Below, one piece after another: positions 3,529 through 43,779 of a stretch of DNA of 52,405 nt. Position 1 is the first letter of the stretch, and the number at the start of each line of letters is the position of its first letter. Origin of the DNA: Candidatus Woesearchaeota archaeon CG10_big_fil_rev_8_21_14_0_10_33_12 (GTDB lineage: Archaea; Nanobdellota; Nanobdellia; Woesearchaeales; CG1-02-33-12); assembly GCA_002762865.1 (NCBI GenBank), contig PCYE01000017.1, positions 1 to 52,405 on the forward strand, read 5' to 3'. The position numbers were made by a program, and so were the translations under genes. The notes beneath the pieces were generated by a model. The model was not told where the DNA came from. It searched no databases and worked only from the letters and a program-made list of their open reading frames with translations.

Positions 3529-4098
3529 ATGTTTTCAGAAATTAAAAAAGAGATAAAACAACTAAGAGAAATCTGCAGGGAAAAAGAGGTTGTTGATGTA
3601 GTTCTGCTAAGGTGTAGTGAAAAAGAAAAAACAAGCAAAATTGATTTGACAATAGTCTTTAAGGATAAAAAAACTGATTATAACAATAAGATTTTTCTTA
3701 AAATAAAAAAAATTTTTAATAAAAATCAAGCAAAGGTTAATATTAATTCTTTGCTTGCTGAGGATTTGTTTAAAGAGCCACTTTTTTTGGAGTTAGTCCA
3801 AAATGGGTTCAGCATAAAAAATAGTAAGCTTATCAGTAAAACACTTGATGTAGAAACCCTTGTTTTATTGACATATGATTTAAAGACACTTGACCATTCT
3901 AAAAAAACCCTTTTTGGTTATGCATTGAAAGGGAGGAAAGGCCAAAAAGGTTTCTTAGACCATTTAAATGGAAATGTTGTTGGAAGAAACAATGTTTTGA
4001 TTCCAATAAATAAGCTTAGTGAGTTAAAGGAATTTTTGAATACATGGCAGGTCAAATATTTTATTCAAAAATTTCTGAGGATACATGAAGGGGAATAA
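3529..4098 (+). CDS. hypothetical cytoplasmic protein (189 aa)
   Basis: Lys-rich soluble ORF that overlaps the start of the 960-aa adhesin gene by 14 nt, which implies co-transcription. No motif I can assign with confidence. Confidence 0.45.
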   Translation: MFSEIKKEIKQLREICREKEVVDVVLLRCSEKEKTSKIDLTIVFKDKKTDYNNKIFLKIKKIFNKNQAKVNINSLLAEDLFKEPLFLELVQNGFSIKNSKLISKTLDVETLVLLTYDLKTLDHSKKTLFGYALKGRKGQKGFLDHLNGNVVGRNNVLIPINKLSELKEFLNTWQVKYFIQKFLRIHEGE

Positions 4099-6967
4099 AA
4101 TAAGAAAAAAGGAAAGAGAAAATGGCTGGAGAAAAATAAAGAGCAAACACCATCTCTCAAATAATATAGTTGCCTTGCTAGTATTATTATTCATGTTGAC
4201 ATCTCTATTTTTTAACTTGATTATTTATAAAAATACAGAAACTCCTGCTAAACTTCCTAAAATAACTGGCAAGGCTTCAGAAGCAACAATCCGTCTTTGT
4301 ATAGGTGCACCGCCACCATATGTAACTGTTATTTACCCAGATGGTGGGGAAGTTATAAACGGAACAATAGTTGTGAATGCAACTGCAACACAAGCAGATG
4401 AAGATGAAGATACCAACTTAACTTTTACTTATGCTAATTTTGAGCACCTTATTGGAATTGATATTGATGAAAGTGATATATATTACAACCACAGCTGGGA
4501 TACAACAGCAATAGATGACGGAAACTGTAATTATAAAATATTTGCTCAGGCATATAGCAACAAGTCTGTATGTGGGGGAGTTTCAGGCACTGATGGTTCT
4601 AATTCTTATTTTTCAGTAAACAACATAGATGTTGAGCCAACCTGGAATAATTTCAAGAATAATCTAACAACTAATTTCTCAGAGTTTGAAAACTCATTAG
4701 AACTAGGCGATTGGACAATGATAGAAAATGCAACAATTGGTATTCTAGAAAAAGGATTAATAAATTTCTTAGCTCAAACAATAAACTTTGATGATGCTGA
4801 CTTTGATTCACATATTAACATATCATTTAATTATATCAGCCTTGATTCATCTGCTGATGCACTGCCATGCCTGAATAGGCCCGCAATACTGACTTTAAAT
4901 AATATAAGCTTTATACAGCCAAAAATACTAGCAGATAGTGAAAATTGCTCAAGCCCTCAATGCACAATAATAAATTATTCCAATGGAAATTTGGTATTTA
5001 GTGTAACAGATTTCTTATATTCCTATTCTTCTGTTGAGAATGCAAGTTTAAATCTTAATATATGGTACCAGCCAGAGAATATTACAAAATACATAAATGA
5101 AAATGTAACATTTTTTGCTAATCTTAGTGACAGTGCTTATGCCAATCCTATTAATGGAACAGGAACATACTGCAATATTAAATTCAACCTGACAGGTGAC
5201 TATACATCCTTTATTGATATGAACTTTAATCACAGTTCTTTATTATATGAATATAACAGGTCTTTTAGCTCGCCAGGAACATTTAATTACATTGTTTTCT
5301 GTAATGATTCTTATTATAATCTTGGAACAATAAGCAAAACAGATAATTTCACAATAACCAACAGGGATCCTGTTTTAATCTCAATTATGCCCAATGAGAC
5401 ATGGAATGAGGACACAATACTTACTGGCCGTGACCTGGATGATTACTTTATAGAGCCTGATGGAGAAACATTAACATTCATAAGTACAAGCATTCCAAAT
5501 ATTAATGTTTCAATAAACAATGTAACACATGTTGTTACATATATTCCTCAGGCAAATTTCTATGGCAACAGGACAATAAAGTTTTATGCATATGATCCTC
5601 ATAATGCCAGAGCAGAAAGCAATATAGTTTATTTGTTTGTAATAGACGTCCCAGAACCTACTCCTTCTACTAGTGGAGGTGGTGGTGGAGGGGGAACAAG
5701 AATAATATGTGAGGAATATTGGGAATGTACTAATTGGGGAGCATGCCTTCCATCAGGGATAAAGACAAGAACATGCAATGATCTTGCGGAATGTGGAACA
5801 GAGTTTAAGAAACCATTTGAGAGCATGGACTGTGAGTATATTGGAACATGCTCTGACCTTATAAAAAACTGCCATGAAGATTTATGTGAAATAGGTGTAG
5901 ATTGCGGAGGATCATGTCCTGCCTGTCCAACATGTTTTGACGGCATACAAAACCAGGGCGAAACAGGGATTGATTGCGGCGGCCCATGCCCTCTATGTAA
6001 AACATGTTTTGACGGCATACAAAACCAGGGCGAAACAGGGATTGATTGCGGCGGGCCTTGCCCTGCATGCCCAAGCTGTTCTGATGGAATAAAAAACTGC
6101 CATGATAGTCTGTGTGAAGAAGGTGTAGATTGTGGAGGACCATGCTCGGTATGCAAGGAAATAGAAATTCCTGCTGTTGTTAAAAGAGCTGTATGGCCAA
6201 CTATTTTACTATTAGGTATGCTTATTTCAGCAACAATATTTGTTATAATCAAATATCATAAGTATTACCAGCCTTTCATTGCAAAAATATTAATGAAGTT
6301 TATGCCTTTAATTGAGTTGTTTAAGAGAAAGAAAAAGATTGTGCCAGAGGAATTAAGAGTAAGGGAATCAATATTATCAAGATTAGACAAGCTTGAGAAA
6401 AACATTGATAAGAAAAGCATAGAAGAGCTTTCAAAGGAATTTGTTAGAATAATTAGAGATTTCTTGAATGAACTGCTAAAGATAGATTATGAGTTTACAT
6501 ATGAGGAATTCTGCAAGGAAATAGAAAAACACAAAATTTCAATGCCATTAAGGATAATGCTCATAACCTTTTTCAAAAAAATATCTGAAATAAGCTACAA
6601 GGGCTATAAGATGAAAAAGCCAGAGTTAAAGGAATTAATTAAAGAGGCAAAAATTATAGTCAAGTTTGGCTCAGAGGAATACTTGGAAGGGAAAACAGAA
6701 AAAGAAGAGCCAAAGGAAAAGGGATTAAAGAAAAAACAAAAGATTAAGAAAGAATCCATGTTAATGCTGGAAATATACAAGGATTTGATTAAAGCAAAAA
6801 AATCAATAAGAGAATCAGATATTGATTCTGTAAAGCTTGCTTACCTCAGGATAAAAGAGCTTTATGAAGAGCTGCCTGTTAATAAAAAAAGAAAAATCTA
6901 TAAAAAAATTGCTGGGCTATATGGCAAGATAAAGGAAAAAGAGCTGGGTAAGATTAAAATAAATTAA
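4085..6967 (+). CDS. 960-aa type-I-like surface adhesin: N-terminal helix, sequon-rich ectodomain, poly-Gly linker, Cys-rich modules, TM helix, Lys-rich cytoplasmic tail
   Basis: N-terminal helix (IVALLVLLFMLTSLFFNLIIY) followed by LPKITGKA. Many N-x-S/T sequons. SGGGGGGGT linker (about 5672-5698). Four C-x-DG-x-N...DCGG-x-C-x-x-C modules (5849-6160). TM helix VWPTILLLGMLISATIFVII (about 6191-6255). About 235-aa charged tail. Confidence 0.8.
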   Translation: MKGNKIRKKERENGWRKIKSKHHLSNNIVALLVLLFMLTSLFFNLIIYKNTETPAKLPKITGKASEATIRLCIGAPPPYVTVIYPDGGEVINGTIVVNATATQADEDEDTNLTFTYANFEHLIGIDIDESDIYYNHSWDTTAIDDGNCNYKIFAQAYSNKSVCGGVSGTDGSNSYFSVNNIDVEPTWNNFKNNLTTNFSEFENSLELGDWTMIENATIGILEKGLINFLAQTINFDDADFDSHINISFNYISLDSSADALPCLNRPAILTLNNISFIQPKILADSENCSSPQCTIINYSNGNLVFSVTDFLYSYSSVENASLNLNIWYQPENITKYINENVTFFANLSDSAYANPINGTGTYCNIKFNLTGDYTSFIDMNFNHSSLLYEYNRSFSSPGTFNYIVFCNDSYYNLGTISKTDNFTITNRDPVLISIMPNETWNEDTILTGRDLDDYFIEPDGETLTFISTSIPNINVSINNVTHVVTYIPQANFYGNRTIKFYAYDPHNARAESNIVYLFVIDVPEPTPSTSGGGGGGGTRIICEEYWECTNWGACLPSGIKTRTCNDLAECGTEFKKPFESMDCEYIGTCSDLIKNCHEDLCEIGVDCGGSCPACPTCFDGIQNQGETGIDCGGPCPLCKTCFDGIQNQGETGIDCGGPCPACPSCSDGIKNCHDSLCEEGVDCGGPCSVCKEIEIPAVVKRAVWPTILLLGMLISATIFVIIKYHKYYQPFIAKILMKFMPLIELFKRKKKIVPEELRVRESILSRLDKLEKNIDKKSIEELSKEFVRIIRDFLNELLKIDYEFTYEEFCKEIEKHKISMPLRIMLITFFKKISEISYKGYKMKKPELKELIKEAKIIVKFGSEEYLEGKTEKEEPKEKGLKKKQKIKKESMLMLEIYKDLIKAKKSIRESDIDSVKLAYLRIKELYEELPVNKKRKIYKKIAGLYGKIKEKELGKIKIN
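5930..6073 (+). repeat. near-perfect 72-bp (24-codon) tandem duplication inside the Cys-rich region
   Basis: ACATGTTTTGACGGCATACAAAACCAGGGCGAAACAGGGATTGATTGCGGCGG... occurs at 5930 and again at 6002. It encodes CFDGIQNQGETGIDCGGPCP(L/A)C twice. Only a few mismatches, all near the 3' end of the unit. Confidence 0.95.
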
Positions 6968-39339: not shown

Positions 39340-39900
39340 ATGTATATTTCAAAACTCTTTGATTTAACCTTGTTTGAGACAAAATACAAACAGCAGGTTA
39401 TTGAGCTGGTTGCTTATTCTCTTATTGCCTTTTTTATCCCTTTCTTTGTAGGCCACCCGCAGCTGTTAGTCGGAACAGCTGTTAATATGGCATTGATACT
39501 ATCCAGCCTTTCGCTAAAAAGAAACTTTCTATTGCCTGTTATCTTCATGCCAAGCATCGCAGTCCTGTCAAGAGGGATGATTTTTGGGCCTTTTACAATC
39601 TTCTTGGTTTACTTCATCCCTTTCATATGGGCTGGAAACTTCATGCTTGCAATGTTCTTTAAAGGCCTTTACCTAAAAAGTAAAACAAACTATTTTGTCA
39701 CACTATTATCAGGCAGTTTTGCAAAGGCCATTTTCCTTTTTTTAACAGCCCTACTTTTCTTTAAATTAAATCTAATACCAGAAATATTCCTTAAAACAAT
39801 GGGTATCCTGCAGTTCACAACAGCAATTTGTGGAGGAATGGCTGCGTTTGCAATAATAAAATCAAGAGAAAGAATAAATAATTTTAAGCAGGCAATCTAA
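39340..39900 (+). CDS. integral membrane protein (186 aa, about 5-6 TM), function unknown
   Basis: Hydrophobic throughout (FFIPFFVGHPQLLVGTAVNMALILSS...). No secure family assignment. Confidence 0.55.
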   Translation: MYISKLFDLTLFETKYKQQVIELVAYSLIAFFIPFFVGHPQLLVGTAVNMALILSSLSLKRNFLLPVIFMPSIAVLSRGMIFGPFTIFLVYFIPFIWAGNFMLAMFFKGLYLKSKTNYFVTLLSGSFAKAIFLFLTALLFFKLNLIPEIFLKTMGILQFTTAICGGMAAFAIIKSRERINNFKQAI

Positions 39901-40199
39901 TCATGAAACCTGTGCTCAATCATTCTTTCAACCTTATTAAAGGCCATATGCAATGCCTTTGCAAGCTCCCACTCAGCTGCCTTTGAATCAAATGTTCTTG
40001 TAGGCGCAACAACCTTTAAACTTACACTATATTTTTTCCTGTTACCTGTCTTTTCATAACTCTTTATATGCATTACAACAGAAGTTAAATTCTTAATAGC
40101 CCTCTGTATCTTTCCATAATATTCCTTGGCCAGCCTGTTAACAGTCTCTACCTCTTTGTCATCCAATTCCTTTATTCCGATTATTTTTATTTGTTCCAT
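39897..40199 (-). CDS. HPF/RaiA (S30AE)-like ribosome-associated protein, about 100 aa
   Basis: Predicted beta-alpha-beta-beta-beta-alpha layout (IKIIGI / EVETVNRLAKEYYGKIQRAI / VVMHIKSYE / YSVSLKVV / FDSKAA / ELAKALHMAFNKVERMIEH), like ribosome hibernation factors. The track gives the start as 40211. The third ATG (40199) has the best TATA spacing. Confidence 0.4.
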   Translation of the reverse strand: MEQIKIIGIKELDDKEVETVNRLAKEYYGKIQRAIKNLTSVVMHIKSYEKTGNRKKYSVSLKVVAPTRTFDSKAAEWELAKALHMAFNKVERMIEHRFHD

Positions 40200-40235
40200 A
40201 TGAATCATCATATAGTTAATCTTTATATATCTTAT

Positions 40236-40423
40236 TGGTAATTCATCTCCTCCAAAATCTAATTAATTAAATATTTATTTTTTGTGGTAATTAACTCCAA
40301 ACTAGATTATTTTAGTGGTAATTAACAGTAAAACTTATAAATAAGTGGTAATTAATAGTTATTATTAATACATGTGGTAATTAAAAGTATAAAGGATTGC
40401 TATTAAACATATGTGGTAATTAA
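40236..40423 (+). promoter_or_regulatory. array of five perfect GTGGTAATTAA direct repeats (plus one degenerate copy) across the pheS promoter and start codon
   Basis: Perfect 11-mers at 40284, 40315, 40345, 40374 and 40413, with spacings of 31, 30, 29 and 39 nt. Degenerate TGGTAATTCA at 40236. Three copies extend to GTGGTAATTAAnAGT. The last copy ends 1 nt before ATG 40425. The motif occurs nowhere else in the window. Confidence 0.8.
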
Positions 40424-40424
40424 C

Positions 40425-42131
40425 ATGGTTTACAGGAAACAGGTTGAGATAAAAGGCCAAAAATACTGGTATCTGTTTCATACTGTAAGAAGTGGAGATA
40501 AATACCTTAAGAAATCAAAATATATAGGAAAAGAGCTGCCAAAAAACATTGAAGAGATTGAAAAAAAATTTTCAGAAGAAGTTAAGATGGAAAAAGAAGA
40601 GATACCAAAAGAGATAAGAGAGCTGGCTGAAACATTGCATCCTTATGAGAGAAAGATTCTTCCATTTCTTAAAGATAACAAATCATTAAAAGAGTTAGTA
40701 AAGGCCTCAAAAATGCAGGAAATAGAGGTTATGAGGGCATTGCAGTGGCTTGAGAACAAGAATATTCTTTCAATAAAAAAAGAGCTTAAAGAGGTTATAA
40801 GCCTGGGCAGTAATGGCAAGTTGTATCTGCAGAATGACTTGCCTGAAAAAAGATTTCTTAAGGCAATTAATGGAATAATTTCTGTTGACAAAATAAAGGA
40901 AAAAGCTGGCCTTGAAAAAGACGAGATAAACGTCTGCCTGGGACTGTTAAGAAGAAAAGCAGCAATAGAGATAATACCTGGAATGAAAATCAAGATAACT
41001 GATAATGGAAAAAAATTACTGCAAAAGCCAGGTTTTGAAGAGCTTTTCCTAAAGCAGCTGCCTCTTGAATCAAAAAACTTAACACAGGAGCAGAAGTATG
41101 CCTTTAATGAGTTAAAGAAAAGAAAAGGAATAATAAAAACAGATATTGTTACAGAAAGAAATATTGAACTAGCAGGGCTTTACAATGATCTGATAAAAGC
41201 AAAGATTTCATTTAAGAACATAATCGACGAGCTTTCTCCGGCAATAATAAAAGACAGCTCATGGAGAAACAAAAGCTTCAGGAGATATGACATAAAGATT
41301 AATGTTCCTTCTATCTCAGGAGGAAGAAGGCATTTTGTAAACGAGGCAGTTGAATACATAAAAAAAGTGTGGCTTGAGATGGGCTTTAAGGAGATGCAGG
41401 GCCCTTTATTGCAGACATCATTCTGGAATTTTGATGCATTATTTACAGCACAGGATCATCCTGCCAGGGAGATGCAGGACACTTTCTTTATCAAAAATCC
41501 TGAGAAAGGAAAGCTTCCTGAAAAAAGGTTTGTTGACGGAGTAAAAAATGCACATGAAAACGGCTTTAAAACAGGAAGCTTGGGCTGGCGCTATAAATGG
41601 AATCCAGAAACAGCAATGAAAAATGTTCTGAGAACGCATACAACTGTTTTGTCTGCAAGAACAATTGCTTCTCTGAAAAAAGATGACCTGCCTGCAAAAT
41701 ATTTTACAGTCGGAAAATGCTTCAGAAATGAGACAGTTGACTGGTGCCACTTGTTTGAATTATGCCAGGTTGAGGGAATTGTTGTTGACCCAGATGTTAA
41801 TTTCAAAAATCTTGTCGGATATTTGACAGAGTTTTACAAAAAGCTCGGTTATGATAAAGTAAGGATAAGGCCAGGCTATTTTCCATACACAGAGATGAGC
41901 GCAGAAGTGGATGTTTTTCATCCTGTAAGAAAAGAGTGGGTTGAACTTGGGGGTTCTGGAATATTCAGGCCAGAGGTTGTAAAGCCATTATTAGGAATTG
42001 AGGTTCCTGTCCTGGCATGGGGCTTGGGAATGGAAAGGGCAATCTCAATGTATTACAATATAAATGATATTCGCGATTTGTACAGAAATGATTTAAAGCA
42101 ATTAAGGGAAATGAAAGCATGGTTGAAATAA
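40425..42131 (+). CDS. pheS: phenylalanyl-tRNA synthetase alpha subunit, archaeal/eukaryal type, with an extra N-terminal extension
   Basis: The C-terminal class II core (FWNFDALFTAQDHPAREMQDTFF, LRTHTT, GKCFRNE, GIVV, GGSGIFRPEV, AWGLGMERA) is preceded by wHTH-like repeats. ATG 40425 is preferred over the track's GTG at 40413, which lies inside a repeat. Confidence 0.9.
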   Translation: MVYRKQVEIKGQKYWYLFHTVRSGDKYLKKSKYIGKELPKNIEEIEKKFSEEVKMEKEEIPKEIRELAETLHPYERKILPFLKDNKSLKELVKASKMQEIEVMRALQWLENKNILSIKKELKEVISLGSNGKLYLQNDLPEKRFLKAINGIISVDKIKEKAGLEKDEINVCLGLLRRKAAIEIIPGMKIKITDNGKKLLQKPGFEELFLKQLPLESKNLTQEQKYAFNELKKRKGIIKTDIVTERNIELAGLYNDLIKAKISFKNIIDELSPAIIKDSSWRNKSFRRYDIKINVPSISGGRRHFVNEAVEYIKKVWLEMGFKEMQGPLLQTSFWNFDALFTAQDHPAREMQDTFFIKNPEKGKLPEKRFVDGVKNAHENGFKTGSLGWRYKWNPETAMKNVLRTHTTVLSARTIASLKKDDLPAKYFTVGKCFRNETVDWCHLFELCQVEGIVVDPDVNFKNLVGYLTEFYKKLGYDKVRIRPGYFPYTEMSAEVDVFHPVRKEWVELGGSGIFRPEVVKPLLGIEVPVLAWGLGMERAISMYYNINDIRDLYRNDLKQLREMKAWLK

Positions 42132-42132
42132 A

Positions 42133-43779
42133 ATGCCTACAATAACTTTAGACAAAAAGGATGTAATGAAACTTGTTGGAAAGGAAATCCCTGATGACAG
42201 GCTGAAAGACAGAATCTCAATGCTTGGAACTGACTTGGAAAAGGTTAGTGATTCTGAGATTATAGTAGAAATATTTCCCAACAGGCCTGATTTATTGTCT
42301 GAAGAGGGCTTTGCAAGGGCATTATCATCTTTTATTGGGGTTAAGACAGGATTAAGAAAATATGATGTCAAGAAATCTTTGTTTAAGGTTAAGGTTGAAA
42401 AGTCTGTTGAAAATGTGAGGCCTTTCATAAGATGCGCTGTTCTTAAAAATGTTAATCTTAGTGATGAGGCAATAAAGAGTTTAATGCAGCTGCAGGAAAA
42501 ACTGCACTTAACACATGGAAGAAAAAGAAGAAAAGTTGCAATAGGTGTTCATGACTTTGATGTTATAAAATTTCCATTGGTTTACAAAGCTGTAAAACCA
42601 GATTTAATATCCTTTGTTCCATTAGGCATGACAGCTGAGATGAATCTTGCTCAGATCCTGTCAAAACATCCAAAGGGAAGGGATTATGCATTCTGCTTGG
42701 ATGGGCTTGAAAAATATCCTGTGATAATTGATGCAAAAAATGATGTTGTCTCTTTTCCGCCGATTATCAATGGGATTGTAACACAGGTCAGAGAAGAAAC
42801 AAAAAATCTTTTTGTTGACGTGACTGGAACTGATGTCAATGCAGTTACACAAGCTTTGAATATTTTGGTTGCAAGCTTAGCAGATAGGGGAGCAGAGATT
42901 TATTCTCTTGATGTCGGCGGGATTGTTAGCCCTGATTTAATCCCGAGAAAAATGAAAGTTGAGTTAAGTTATGTTAATAAGCTATTGGGGCTTAGTTTAA
43001 AGCAAAAAGAATTTGAGGAACTGCTCTCAAAAATGGGCCTTGGCTATGATAAGGAAGTATTGATTCCTGCTTACCGTGGTGATATAATCCATCCGGTTGA
43101 TGTTGTTGAAGCAGCTGCAATTGCATACGGCTATGAAAATTTTCAGCCAGAGATACCAAACCTTGTTACAATCGCAGAGGAAAATCCATTTGAAAAATTC
43201 AAGAGTAAGATAGCTGAACTTCTTGTTGGTCTTGGAATGATTGAGACAAATACTTATCATATAACCAATAAAGAAAGTTTGAATAAAAAAATGAATCTTG
43301 AGCTTAGCTGTGTTGAGCTTTCAAATGCGCTTACAACTGATTATGATGTCTTGAGGTCATGGATAACTCCAAGTTTAATGGATGTTTTAAGGAACAACAG
43401 AAACAGGGAATTTCCCCAGAAAATATTTGAGATGGGAATATGCTTTAAAGAAAACAATGAAACAGAGACCGGAGTTGAAGAATTCACAAGGCTGGCTGTT
43501 TTAATCTCACATACAAAAGCAAACTTCACAGAAATAAAACAAATGCTTGATTATTTGTTTAATATTCTTTGCCTGGAATACAAAACTGAAGATACAGAAC
43601 ATACAAGCTTTATCAGGGGAAGGGTTGGCCGTGTTGTTGTTGATGGAAAGAAGCTGGCCTACATAGGAGAACTATCGCCAGAGGTCATAACAAACTGGGA
43701 ATTGGAGATGCCAGTTGCAGCCCTTGAATTAAACTTAACAGAGCTTTTTGAATTAATTCTTAAACAAAAAACCTTATAA
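42133..43779 (+). CDS. pheT: phenylalanyl-tRNA synthetase beta subunit, archaeal type
   Basis: Starts 1 nt after the pheS stop. MPTITL.K.D...L.G, EIFPNRPDLLSEEG, B3/4 and B5 regions, and the 548-aa length are typical of archaeal PheT. Confidence 0.9.
   Translation: MPTITLDKKDVMKLVGKEIPDDRLKDRISMLGTDLEKVSDSEIIVEIFPNRPDLLSEEGFARALSSFIGVKTGLRKYDVKKSLFKVKVEKSVENVRPFIRCAVLKNVNLSDEAIKSLMQLQEKLHLTHGRKRRKVAIGVHDFDVIKFPLVYKAVKPDLISFVPLGMTAEMNLAQILSKHPKGRDYAFCLDGLEKYPVIIDAKNDVVSFPPIINGIVTQVREETKNLFVDVTGTDVNAVTQALNILVASLADRGAEIYSLDVGGIVSPDLIPRKMKVELSYVNKLLGLSLKQKEFEELLSKMGLGYDKEVLIPAYRGDIIHPVDVVEAAAIAYGYENFQPEIPNLVTIAEENPFEKFKSKIAELLVGLGMIETNTYHITNKESLNKKMNLELSCVELSNALTTDYDVLRSWITPSLMDVLRNNRNREFPQKIFEMGICFKENNETETGVEEFTRLAVLISHTKANFTEIKQMLDYLFNILCLEYKTEDTEHTSFIRGRVGRVVVDGKKLAYIGELSPEVITNWELEMPVAALELNLTELFELILKQKTL

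What the first reader, a model, noticed from the sequence alone, without database searches (positions are those of the whole stretch)
40236..40423. Five perfect GTGGTAATTAA direct repeats phased at about 30 bp over the pheST promoter and start codon
Identical 11-mers start at 40284, 40315, 40345, 40374 and 40413. The spacings are 31, 30, 29 and 39 nt, about three helical turns, so the sites lie on the same DNA face. A degenerate sixth copy is at 40236. Three copies extend to GTGGTAATTAAnAGT. The last copies bracket the likely TATA elements (40386-40408), and the final one abuts the pheS ATG. The array fills the divergent spacer between the HPF-like gene and pheS-pheT. The motif occurs nowhere else in these 52 kb. 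Phased iteron-like sites on an aminoacyl-tRNA synthetase promoter suggest cooperative repressor binding. One speculative candidate is the wHTH-rich N-terminus of PheRS alpha itself (autoregulation). Bacterial pheST control by attenuation or T-box has no known archaeal equivalent.
Basis: seen in the sequence. Interest (0 to 1): 0.65.

Follow-up and report, generated by a model that had tools for sequence, protein, structure and literature searches.

The report
Self-regulating switch on an archaeal PheRS gene
Five identical 11-base sites over the pheS promoter always occur with a small, undescribed domain at the start of the protein they precede, whatever that protein is, so the enzyme probably binds its own promoter.

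Summary
Five exact GTGGTAATTAA copies lie at 40284, 40315, 40345, 40374 and 40413, where 0.09 are expected in the whole window, and there are none elsewhere.

The array is conserved upstream of pheS in dozens of Woesearchaeota/Nanoarchaeota genomes. In nine close relatives the repeats are invariant while the spacers drift.

The array does not follow pheS. It follows a basic domain of about 55 residues (three beta strands plus a helix) at the N-terminus of this PheS. That domain has no Pfam, NCBIfam, PHROGs, PADLOC or PDB match.
- The same domain heads Fic proteins and NuoE-like ferredoxins in other archaea, behind the same repeats.
- Equally close PheS proteins without the domain have no repeats (three lineages checked).
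- Diverged copies of the domain keep the same layout (site, TATA box, site, about 8 nt, ATG) but with different site sequences, such as GTGGCGTATAAC and GTAGTACATAAC.

Most likely this is a portable autoregulatory unit: an operator array plus an N-terminal DNA-binding domain that lets PheRS alpha repress pheST transcription. DNA binding and the direction of regulation are inferred, not shown.

The binding domain is not the winged-helix region, and the sixth copy is not above chance.

The parts
40284..40294 (+). Repeat 1 (GTGGTAATTAA), the distal operator copy
   Evidence: Exact copy. Invariant in 9 close relatives, whereas DNA upstream of it cannot be aligned.
40315..40325 (+). Repeat 2, immediately upstream of the BRE/TATA box of the conserved promoter
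   Evidence: Exact copy. Its position matches the site upstream of the TATA box seen in about 50 related promoters.
40334..40344 (+). Conserved TATA box (CTTATAAATAA) between repeats 2 and 3
   Evidence: Conserved in eight of the nine close relatives; L028 has one substitution. Other lineages place the same TTTATAAATA-type box between their last two repeats.
40345..40355 (+). Repeat 3, abutting the 3' side of the TATA box in the position typical of archaeal repressors
   Evidence: Exact copy. The layout matches the site downstream of the TATA box in related promoters.
40374..40384 (+). Repeat 4
   Evidence: Exact copy. Conserved in relatives, with one G variant in L028.
40387..40412 (+). Spacer with weaker TATA-like stretches (GTATAAAGG; CTATTAAACATAT); possibly a second, near-leaderless promoter
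   Evidence: Read from the sequence. In relatives this spacer reads GCTTATTTAAAATAA. Leaderless promoters with a TATA box starting about 27-36 nt before the ATG are common in this window. The transcription start is not mapped.
40413..40423 (+). Repeat 5, proximal operator copy ending 1 nt before the pheS ATG
   Evidence: Exact copy. A proximal copy starts 12-19 nt before the ATG in 48 of 52 related promoters.
40425..40592 (+). Coding region for the N-terminal domain of PheS (residues 1-56). The basic three-stranded sheet is residues 2-35 (the first 41 residues have pI 10.0) and the helix is residues 42-55/59.
   Evidence: AF2 models give pLDDT 84 for the domain alone, and the same secondary-structure elements in the full-length model, with a confidence dip at residues 51-60. 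Absent from 85 of the 120 closest PheS homologues. No hit in Pfam, NCBIfam, PHROGs, PADLOC or PDB. pI.
40425..42131 (+). pheS (PheRS alpha, 568 aa), the regulated gene and the presumed regulator
   Evidence: Pfam tRNA-synt_2d, E=2.7e-82. About 77 residues longer at the N-terminus than solved PheRS alpha chains.
42133..43779 (+). pheT (PheRS beta, 548 aa), which starts 2 nt after pheS and is presumably co-transcribed
   Evidence: Pfam tRNA_synthFbeta, B5, B1 and B3_4 domains.

Best explanation
The five repeats are the operator of a self-contained autoregulatory unit. The unit has two halves.

1. The first roughly 55 codons of the regulated gene encode a small, basic domain made of three beta strands and a helix.
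2. Two or more direct copies of an 11-12 bp site (here GTGGTAATTAA, usually followed by C) lie about 30 bp apart. They bracket the TATA box, and the proximal copy fills the gap between the TATA box and the start codon.

Proposed mechanism: PheRS alpha carries the domain, so the (alpha-beta)2 enzyme carries two. It binds these sites on one face of the DNA. When enzyme is plentiful, binding hinders TFB/RNA polymerase recruitment or promoter opening, giving negative feedback on pheS-pheT transcription.

**Shown here**
- The sites are under strong selection.
- They track the domain rather than pheS.
- Site sequence changes with domain subtype.
- The layout relative to the TATA box and the ATG is fixed.

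**Inferred**
- The domain itself contacts DNA.
- Binding is cooperative.
- The outcome is repression rather than activation.
For: 1. **Selection on the sites.** In 9 relatives with PheS 85-92% identical, 53 of 55 repeat columns are invariant (pairwise identity 0.99). Spacers have 37 of 87 invariant columns (0.76), and DNA upstream of copy 1 cannot be aligned (0.36).
2. **Motif-first search.** A scan of 185,579 species genomes for two copies 15-32 nt apart gave 45 loci. 36 are archaeal, and in 33 of these the array sits directly upstream of a gene that starts with the domain. Of the other three, one has the array ahead of a two-gene operon that contains the domain-bearing pheS, one is cut off at a contig end, and one lies in a mobile-element-like region. 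The 9 bacterial hits and 1 viral hit are longer tandem repeats with no connection to this system.
3. **The body of the protein does not matter.** The same domain and the same repeats precede PheS, Fic proteins (PF02661; Methanocellales-labelled genomes and Altiarchaeales) and NuoE-like 2Fe-2S ferredoxins (PF01257).
4. **Domain-first search.** 23 of 25 metagenomic loci found through the domain carry the site (at most 1 mismatch) just before the ATG. The 2 exceptions are explained below. Pooled, 52 of 53 non-redundant promoters carry it. The modal spacing is 30 nt, and the last copy starts 19 nt before the ATG in 28 of them.
5. **Negative control.** Among the 120 closest PheS homologues, 85 lack the domain yet are equally similar (60-64% identity). 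Three distinct promoters of this kind have a TATA box and a leaderless layout but no site.
6. **Covariation.** Diverged domains keep the site-TATA-site-ATG layout with different sites:
   - L072: GTGGCGTATAAC twice, at -51 and -21.
   - L075: GTGGTGTATA twice, at the same positions.
   - L077 and L078 (same domain subtype): GTAGTACATAAC.
   - L079 and L081: GTAGGTATAC, plus an inverted copy upstream.
7. **Specificity.** Two complete genomes (829 kb and 987 kb) and one 1.39-Mb scaffold each gave a single paired-motif locus, which is the promoter of the domain-bearing gene. Other leaderless promoters in the window lack the site. Direct repeats of at least 10 nt at 27-33 nt spacing occur upstream of 7 of 357 control ORFs, against 28 of 64 domain-bearing genes.
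8. **Properties of the domain.**
   - Confident beta-beta-beta-helix fold (pLDDT 84).
   - The first 41 residues have pI 10.0.
   - A low-confidence linker joins it to the canonical PheS body.
   - It lies at the N-terminus in most of the 71 database representatives (63 start within the first 8 residues).
Against: - There is no direct evidence that the domain binds DNA.
- Foldseek found no significant structural neighbour in PDB (best E=0.26) or BFVD (best E=0.08). The fold therefore gives no independent support for nucleic-acid binding.
- Stand-alone ORFs of 55-100 aa carrying the domain exist. A free paralogue could be the true regulator.
- In a few loci, arrays precede genes that lack the domain: a radical-SAM-like gene in L020, a Fic gene in L021 and a mobile-element ORF in L004. 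The link is therefore not strictly one-to-one.
- In the window's own clade the conserved TATA box lies between copies 2 and 3. Copies 4 and 5 may therefore be transcribed, which leaves room for an RNA-level component.
- The direction of regulation is inferred from position only.
Confidence: 0.62

Rival explanations
1. A separate, trans-encoded transcription factor binds the repeats. It might be a free-standing paralogue of the domain. The fused domain would then do something else, such as contacting that factor or tethering the enzyme.
For: - Short stand-alone ORFs carrying the domain exist, for example 57-aa proteins in Altiarchaeota.
- Arrays sometimes precede genes that lack the domain.
- No DNA-binding fold match was found.
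Against: - Site sequence co-varies with the fused domain in the same locus.
- No conserved neighbouring regulator gene exists: the flanks cannot be aligned even among close relatives.
- In three large assemblies the paired motif occurs only at the domain-bearing gene.
- Many of the 'stand-alone' ORFs are followed at once by a Fic ORF, so they look like split or frameshifted fusions.
Confidence: 0.2
2. The domain activates rather than represses. Binding upstream of the BRE/TATA box would recruit TBP/TFB, giving positive feedback or a bistable switch. Alternatively it acts both ways depending on occupancy.
For: - At least one copy always lies just upstream of the BRE/TATA box. From my own knowledge, archaeal activators such as Ptr2 bind in that position.
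- Up to 8 copies extend upstream.
Against: - The most conserved copy is the proximal one, between the TATA box and the ATG. It is present in 52 of 53 promoters and is the only copy in 5 of them.
- From established knowledge of archaeal repressors (MDR1, Phr, LrpA, TrmB), this is where a bound protein blocks RNA polymerase recruitment.
Confidence: 0.12
3. The element works at the RNA level. The repeats lie in a 5' leader, and the domain or another factor binds the mRNA to control translation, as in bacterial ThrRS autoregulation.
For: In the window's clade the conserved TATA box (40334-40344) lies upstream of copies 3 to 5, so a leader of about 60 nt containing copies 4 and 5 is possible.
Against: - In most lineages every copy lies upstream of, or directly against, the only TATA box, and the ATG follows about 20 nt after it. 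That is a leaderless layout, so the sites would not be transcribed.
- The region shows no RNA structure signal (z = -0.38).
- No Rfam family matches, even at E<=1.
Confidence: 0.05
4. The repeats have no function. They would be slippage or duplication products, or remnants of a mobile element, or replication iterons.
For: - The L004 array is a recent perfect 30-nt tandem duplication in a mobile-element-like context.
- The bacterial matches to the same 11-mer are plain tandem repeats.
Against: - In archaeal promoters only the 11-mer is conserved while the spacers diverge.
- The motif is identical across several archaeal lineages, with PheS identity as low as 46%.
- Orientation and distance to the TATA box and the ATG are fixed.
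- The sites are absent from pheS genes that lack the domain.
Confidence: 0.02

Closest known systems
Trigger enzymes with an N-terminal DNA-binding domain: PutA (ribbon-helix-helix domain, several operator sites in the divergent put control region), BirA (winged-helix domain fused to a class II synthetase-like biotin ligase) and archaeal RbkR (riboflavin kinase fused to a winged-helix domain; PMC5397151). PutA and BirA are from my own knowledge.
   Same: - An enzyme carries an appended N-terminal DNA-binding module and controls transcription of its own or its pathway's genes.
- As in PutA, several sites lie in a short divergent intergenic region.
- BirA's catalytic fold is related to class II aminoacyl-tRNA synthetases such as PheRS.
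   Different: - The domain here has no detectable relation to RHH or HTH folds or to any described family.
- The sites are direct repeats about 30 bp apart, not palindromes.
- The same domain-plus-operator unit occurs on unrelated enzymes (PheS, Fic, NuoE-like and others).
- Binding has not been tested.
E. coli alanyl-tRNA synthetase, which represses transcription of its own gene (Putney and Schimmel 1981; my own knowledge)
   Same: An aminoacyl-tRNA synthetase acts as the transcriptional regulator of its own gene by binding at the promoter and start site.
   Different: - AlaRS is bacterial and binds a palindrome flanking the transcription start.
- It has no dedicated, portable N-terminal module.
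- Here the promoter is archaeal (TBP/TFB type) and carries phased direct repeats.
Archaeal repressors that bind between the TATA box and the transcription start (MDR1, Phr, LrpA, TrmB family; my own knowledge; reviews PMC4158304 and PMC2995911 appeared)
   Same: The operator lies directly downstream of, or around, the TATA box, sometimes as several adjacent sites. The expected action is to block RNA polymerase recruitment.
   Different: Those are free-standing HTH or winged-helix regulators. Here the presumed binder is a non-HTH domain fused to the regulated enzyme.
Bacterial pheST control by attenuation or T-box leaders, and ThrRS translational autoregulation
   Same: All provide feedback control of a synthetase gene.
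   Different: Those act through structured leader RNAs. This region has no structure signal and no Rfam match, and most of the sites lie upstream of the transcript.
DNA-binding domains built from a three-stranded sheet plus a helix (lambda and Tn916 integrase arm-binding domains, AP2/ERF)
   Same: The predicted order of elements is beta-beta-beta-alpha, and integrase arm sites are direct repeats. This resemblance is recalled from memory.
   Different: Foldseek did not retrieve any of them (best PDB E=0.26), and there is no sequence similarity. Membership is not supported.
Plasmid iterons
   Same: Short identical direct repeats in phase, bound by a protein encoded next to them that also autoregulates its own gene.
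   Different: There is no replication context. The sites are chromosomal, tied to the TATA box and start codon of a housekeeping gene, and occur as a single locus per genome.

Membership tests
Autoregulatory enzyme/DNA-binding-domain fusion ('trigger enzyme' with its own operator) | A discrete extra domain is appended to an otherwise canonical enzyme | tested here: met
   - Window PheS residue 266 aligns with residue 188 of human PheRS alpha.
- 85 of the 120 closest homologues start at about window residue 62 and lack the domain.
- The AF2 full-length model shows a separate beta-beta-beta-helix module, followed by a dip in confidence at residues 51-60.
Autoregulatory enzyme/DNA-binding-domain fusion ('trigger enzyme' with its own operator) | Specific conserved sites lie in the promoter of the enzyme's own gene | tested here: met
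   - 52 of 53 non-redundant promoters carry the site.
- Repeats are invariant while spacers drift.
- Position relative to the TATA box and the ATG is fixed.
Autoregulatory enzyme/DNA-binding-domain fusion ('trigger enzyme' with its own operator) | Sites co-occur and co-vary with the domain rather than with the enzyme body | tested here: met
   - The same sites occur with PheS, Fic and NuoE-like bodies.
- They are absent from 3 lineages of pheS that lack the domain.
- Diverged domains have different sites in the same layout.
Autoregulatory enzyme/DNA-binding-domain fusion ('trigger enzyme' with its own operator) | The domain binds the sites and changes transcription | not testable with these tools
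   This needs EMSA or footprinting and in vitro transcription. The only indirect support is that the first 41 residues have pI 10.0.
Known DNA-binding folds (HTH/wHTH, RHH, AP2/integrase-arm, Sso7d-like) | Sequence or structural similarity to a described family | tested here: not met
   - Pfam, NCBIfam, PHROGs and PADLOC gave no significant hit to the domain: none in NCBIfam or PADLOC, and the best elsewhere were E=0.032 (Pfam DUF2004) and E=0.19 (one PHROG).
- A PDB profile search gave a best E of 0.44.
- Foldseek against PDB gave a best E of 0.26, and against BFVD 0.08.
Leader-RNA control of synthetase genes (T-box, attenuator, ThrRS-type operator) | A structured, conserved 5' leader RNA | tested here: not met
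   - No Rfam match at the gathering threshold or at E<=1.
- Folding z-score is -0.38.
- Most lineages have a leaderless layout.
Plasmid/viral iteron origin | Repeats lie next to a replication initiator gene or an AT-rich unwinding element on a replicon | tested here: not met
   - The neighbours are pheS/pheT and an HPF-like gene.
- The same array is chromosomal in complete genomes and occurs once per genome.
CRISPR or other tandem-repeat arrays | The whole repeat unit, spacer length included, is regular, and the repeat is at least about 20 nt | tested here: not met
   - The repeat is 11-12 nt, and spacers of 18-28 nt are conserved by position among relatives.
- TRF finds only a weak 30-nt period (score 83).

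The most novel reading that the evidence does not exclude
This would be a previously undescribed family of small DNA-binding domains (three beta strands plus a helix, always at the N-terminus) that travels together with its own operator as a plug-in negative-feedback cassette.

- Evolution has grafted the cassette onto unrelated genes across several archaeal lineages. The partners are PheRS alpha, Fic enzymes, NuoE-like ferredoxins, NAD kinase, a PAS histidine kinase and an ADP-ribosyltransferase.
- Site specificity follows domain subtype, in the general form GT(G/A)G-N4-TAAC.
- The domain is the first part of the protein to leave the ribosome, and the operator touches the start codon of a leaderless gene. 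The domain could therefore act in cis, co-translationally, on the very promoter that produced it.
Probability: 0.45. Interest if true: 0.85.

Novelty: new variant of a known kind. Interest (0 to 1): 0.78.

Why it matters
- No transcriptional feedback on an aminoacyl-tRNA synthetase gene is known in archaea. How genome-reduced DPANN archaea regulate core translation genes is largely unknown.
- If the reading is right, this is the first such circuit. It uses a domain absent from current domain libraries.
- The same domain-plus-operator unit on PheS, Fic, NuoE-like and other proteins would be a natural example of a portable autoregulation cassette.
- Its small size (about 55 residues and a 12-bp site) and its apparent range of specificities could make it a compact, orthogonal repressor/operator set for archaeal genetics.
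- It also gives a concrete, testable function for the unexplained N-terminal extension annotated simply as part of 'phenylalanine--tRNA ligase subunit alpha' in many metagenome-assembled genomes.

Tried and rejected
- **Known RNA element:** none found. Rfam gave no match at the gathering threshold or at E<=1, and the RNA folding z-score is -0.38.
- **Known protein family for the N-terminal domain:** nothing significant in Pfam, NCBIfam, PHROGs or PADLOC (best E=0.032 in Pfam and 0.19 in PHROGs; none in the other two), nor in a PDB sequence-profile search (best E=0.44).
- **Fold comparison:** the AF2 model gave no significant Foldseek match in PDB or BFVD. I therefore dropped my initial idea that it is an AP2 or integrase-arm type domain.
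- **Word-indexed homologue search:** the 56-aa domain alone gave only 3 hits. A diverse alignment returned only short proteins.
- **The search for related loci:** The closer alignment A2 worked.
- **Bacterial and viral matches to the paired 11-mer:** these are longer tandem or coding repeats and are unrelated.
- **The 'sixth degenerate copy':** rejected as chance.
- **The divergent HPF-like gene as a partner of the array:** rejected. In relatives it is 1 kb or more away or absent, while the array stays with pheS.
- **The motif as a general promoter or Shine-Dalgarno element:** rejected. Other leaderless promoters in the window, and promoters of pheS genes that lack the domain, do not have it.
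- **Literature searches:** searches for the motif string, for synthetase N-terminal extensions in Woesearchaeota and for N-terminal domains of archaeal Fic proteins found nothing relevant.
Full report
**1. The observation**

Reading 39900-40700 and searching for the pattern confirm five exact GTGGTAATTAA copies on the + strand. They start at 40284, 40315, 40345, 40374 and 40413, with spacings of 31, 30, 29 and 39 nt.
- There is no other exact copy on either strand of the window. Base composition predicts 0.09 copies.
- It is the only 10-12-mer in the window that clusters three or more times within 300 nt.
- The array lies in the 213-nt spacer between a weakly HPF-like gene (39897-40211, minus strand) and pheS (ATG at 40425) followed by pheT (42133-43779).

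Three details need correcting.
- The 'sixth copy' (TTGGTAATTCA, 40235-40245) has two mismatches. At that stringency the window holds 21 matches against 26.9 expected, and the copy does not align in relatives.
- The nAGT extension of copies 2 to 4 is real but not conserved. Only a C at position +12 is favoured (100 of 177 copies).
- The mechanical ORF call starts at the GTG of repeat 5. All homologues show that ATG 40425 is the start.

**2. The array is conserved**

I scanned one genome per species (185,579 genomes) for two copies 15-32 nt apart. This returned 45 loci, where roughly one is expected for 22 specified bases.
- 36 loci are archaeal. Most are Woesearchaeota/Nanoarchaeota. There are also one Altiarchaeales scaffold and contigs labelled Methanocellales or Methanosarcinales.
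- The 9 bacterial loci and the single viral match are longer tandem or coding repeats that happen to contain the 11-mer.
- I aligned nine close relatives of the window (PheS 85-92% identical). In these, 53 of 55 repeat columns are invariant, against 37 of 87 spacer columns, and DNA upstream of copy 1 cannot be aligned at all. This is the footprint of selection on the 11-mers themselves.

**3. The array follows an N-terminal domain, not pheS**

tblastn with the window's PheS showed full-length matches downstream of the array in most archaeal loci. In ten loci, however, only the first 55-90 residues matched.
- In those ten loci the downstream proteins are Fic enzymes (PF02661) or NuoE-like thioredoxin-like 2Fe-2S ferredoxins (PF01257). 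All begin with the same module, M-[VPA]-Y-x-K-x-V-x-I-K-G-x-x-Y-[WY]-Y-L-F-H-T-V-R...K-Y-[IL]-G-K.
- The window's PheS is about 77 residues longer at its N-terminus than solved PheRS alpha chains.
- Of its 120 closest homologues, 35 carry the module (532-568 aa). The other 85 do not (494-523 aa) and start at the position of window residue ~62, although they are just as similar (60-64% identity).

**4. Tests of the association**

- *Domain-first sampling.* A metagenome scan using the domain gave 27 loci, of which 25 include the domain's start and upstream DNA. 23 of these carry the site (at most 1 mismatch) immediately before the ATG.
- *The two exceptions are informative.*
  - In L055 (the same arrangement as L021), pheS is the second gene behind an inserted AAA ATPase gene, and the array sits upstream of that operon.
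  - In L072 the domain is diverged (46% identity) and a different repeat occupies the same places (see section 6).
- *Negative control.* Three distinct lineages of pheS that lack the domain (L083-85, L086, L087-88) have a TATA box about 22-25 nt before the ATG. None has a site with 1 mismatch or fewer upstream of pheS.
- *Specificity.* The complete genomes CP010426 (829 kb) and CP061209 (987 kb) and the 1.39-Mb Altiarchaeales scaffold each yielded a single paired-motif locus. In each case it is the promoter of the domain-bearing gene.
- *Background rate.* Direct repeats of at least 10 nt at 27-33 nt spacing occur upstream of 7 of 357 other ORFs in the same DNA, against 28 of 64 domain-bearing genes.

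**5. Anatomy of the promoter**

Across 53 non-redundant promoters of the window's domain subtype:
- 52 carry at least one site.
- The number of copies per promoter ranges from 1 to 8, with a mode of 3.
- Spacing peaks at 30 nt (28-31 nt in 84 of 135 intervals). Secondary peaks at 39 and 45-46 nt occur; the 45-46-nt intervals often contain a degenerate copy.
- The last copy starts 19 nt before the ATG in 28 promoters, and 12-13 nt before it in the window's clade.

The typical unit reads: site, N19, site, (a/g)gaaa-n-aTTTATAAATA, site, about 8 nt, ATG. The TATA box is therefore sandwiched between two sites on the same face of the helix.

The ATG follows the TATA box by about 20 nt. That is the leaderless layout seen at many other promoters in this window, and those promoters lack the site.

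In the window's clade the unit appears to be doubled.
- Copy 2, a conserved TATA box (40334-40344) and copy 3 form one unit.
- Copy 4, a weaker and variable TATA-like stretch, and copy 5 form a second.
- Copy 5 ends 1 nt before the ATG.
- The transcription start cannot be decided from sequence alone.

**6. Covariation between domain and site**

Genes with diverged domains keep the layout but use different sites.

| Locus | Domain core | Site | Position of repeat start relative to ATG |
|---|---|---|---|
| Window type | YWYLFHTVR | GTGGTAATTAAC | 19 nt before ATG (12-13 in the window's clade) |
| L072 | YWILEHTLRKGKKY | GTGGCGTATAAC, two copies | -51 and -21 |
| L075 | YYVLVHSVRKGKKV | GTGGTGTATA, two copies | -51 and -21 |
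| L077 | YWILIHSVRKG | GTAGTGCATAAC and GTAGTACATAAC | -48 and -18 |
| L078 (same subtype as L077) | YWILIHSVRKG | GTAGTACATAAC | one copy, just before the ATG |
| L082 | YYYLVSSHR | GTAGTGCCTAAC | after the TATA box |
| L079, L081 | YFYL(V/K)HSYR | GTAGGTATAC, plus an inverted copy upstream of the TATA box | after the TATA box |

For L072 and L075 the positions are those of the repeat with its flanking T (TGTGG...). Several of the sites fit the form GT(G/A)G-N4-TAAC. A change in site sequence that matches a change in the adjacent domain is what direct recognition predicts. A general host factor would be hard to reconcile with this pattern.

**7. The domain**

- *Distribution.* An exhaustive phmmer search of 1.84 billion cluster representatives found 71 proteins at E<=1e-3. 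In most of them the domain is N-terminal (63 start within the first 8 residues).
- *Fusion partners.* By Pfam, the partners include 2Fe-2S_thioredx, Fic, PheS, a PAS histidine kinase, NAD kinase, an ADP-ribosyltransferase, RCC1 and AP_endonuc_2. Many hits are short fragments or possibly stand-alone proteins.
- *Predicted structure.*
  - AF2 with a 51-sequence alignment gives strands 2-9, 12-23 and 26-35 and a helix 42-59, with mean pLDDT 84.
  - The full-length PheS model gives almost the same elements (strands 3-9, 12-23, 26-35; helix 42-55), followed by a low-confidence stretch at residues 51-60 before the canonical body.
- *Charge.* The first 41 residues, which contain the sheet, are strongly basic, with pI 10.0.
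- *No known relatives.*
  - Pfam, NCBIfam, PHROGs, PADLOC and PDB sequences give no significant match.
  - Foldseek finds no significant neighbour in PDB or BFVD.
  - My recollection that lambda and Tn916 integrase arm-binding domains and AP2/ERF domains share a beta-beta-beta-alpha order is only a lead. The test did not support membership.

**8. Mechanism**

The best-supported reading is an autoregulatory unit. The N-terminal domain of PheRS alpha binds the phased sites around the TATA box and start site of its own operon and limits transcription when the enzyme is abundant.
- *Shown:* conservation, linkage to the domain, covariation and position.
- *Inferred:*
  - DNA binding by the domain.
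  - Cooperativity, suggested by same-face spacing and by the two domains per (alpha-beta)2 enzyme.
  - Repression, suggested by the proximal site lying where archaeal repressors such as MDR1, Phr and TrmB act (my own knowledge).
- *Open question:* whether the enzyme body passes a signal such as Phe, ATP or tRNA to the domain, as in BirA, PutA or archaeal RbkR (PMC5397151).

The rival explanations are a separate factor or free paralogue as the binder, activation or dual action, an RNA-level role for copies 4 and 5, and non-functional repeats. The last two are poorly supported.

**9. Comparison with known systems and novelty**

In function this resembles trigger enzymes (PutA, BirA, RbkR) and the self-repression of E. 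coli alaS by AlaRS. In position it resembles archaeal repressors that bind downstream of the TATA box. It differs in four ways.
- The domain is undescribed.
- The operators are phased direct repeats.
- The domain-plus-operator unit is portable across unrelated genes and several archaeal lineages.
- The regulated gene is an aminoacyl-tRNA synthetase in archaea.

Literature searches for the motif, for synthetase extensions in Woesearchaeota and for N-terminal domains of archaeal Fic proteins found no prior description.

I rate it a new variant of a known kind, with a sizeable chance that the domain is a new DNA-binding family.

**10. Verdict**

Autoregulation by the PheS N-terminus fits the evidence, but through a different domain than the one proposed.
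- Interest is high, because the finding turns an anonymous N-terminal extension into a directly testable regulatory circuit.

Noticed in passing
L004 4998-5156 (minus strand): Six near-identical 30-nt tandem units, each starting GTGGTAATTAAC. The region looks like a mobile element (serine recombinase, HTH-containing ATPase). A 112-aa membrane ORF without the N-terminal domain follows. A plasmid or virus may be borrowing, or titrating, the host's operator sites.
   Followed up: partly
L021 4630-7580 (minus strand); also L055: An AAA ATPase gene (426 aa) sits between the repeat array and the domain-bearing pheS. A neighbouring Fic gene without the domain has its own two-copy cluster, which hints at regulation in trans. 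The ATPase gene carries its own repeat, TATGTTACAC, at -54 and -21.
   Followed up: partly
L020 1829-1871 and 1914-3299: A partial duplicate of the pheS promoter array (two copies, a TATA box and a degenerate copy) lies in front of a 461-aa radical-SAM-like ORF. This ORF is inserted between the HPF-like gene and pheS in a close relative of the window.
   Followed up: no
L083-L088, about 150-1100 nt upstream of pheS: All three lineages of pheS that lack the domain have a TrmB-family regulator gene immediately upstream, on the same strand. This may be an alternative way of regulating pheST in those genomes.
   Followed up: no
window 40413-40425 and 40199-40211: Two probable start-codon corrections. 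The mechanical ORF call begins pheS at the GTG inside repeat 5, but the real start is ATG 40425. The HPF-like gene probably starts at ATG 40199, because relatives begin MEKIKIIG, which corresponds to the window's fifth residue.
   Followed up: partly
window 5900-6097: A 72-nt tandem repeat (2.8 copies, 82% match) lies inside the 960-aa ORF 4085-6967. It encodes a Cys/Gly/Pro-rich repeat.
   Followed up: no
L010, L012, L016, L020, L029, L038, L044: These MAG contigs are labelled 'Methanosarcinales'. L010, L016 and L029 encode PheS 85-92% identical to that of Woesearchaeota/Nanoarchaeota MAGs (L029 in two pieces, 79% and 91%), L020 carries an HPF-like gene 78% identical to the window's, and L012, L038 and L044 carry the domain-bearing NuoE-like gene. 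The labels are probably binning or classification errors.
   Followed up: no
L075 2501-3404, L076 2501-3391, L077 2501-3406, L081 218-1143: ORFs of 56-99 aa that contain only the domain are followed directly by a Fic-domain ORF. These are either frameshifted or split fusions, or a genuine two-gene form of the same system.
   Followed up: no
L066 3001-4691: The domain-bearing NuoE-like gene, behind seven exact repeats, is followed with a 4-nt overlap by a 363-aa ORF that by eye resembles NuoF (not scanned against Pfam). The cassette would therefore control a NuoEF-type module in those archaea.
   Followed up: no
protein P0034 (268 aa): This is one of the few cases where the domain is not N-terminal. 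It lies at residues 169-221, downstream of an ART-PolyVal ADP-ribosyltransferase domain.
   Followed up: no
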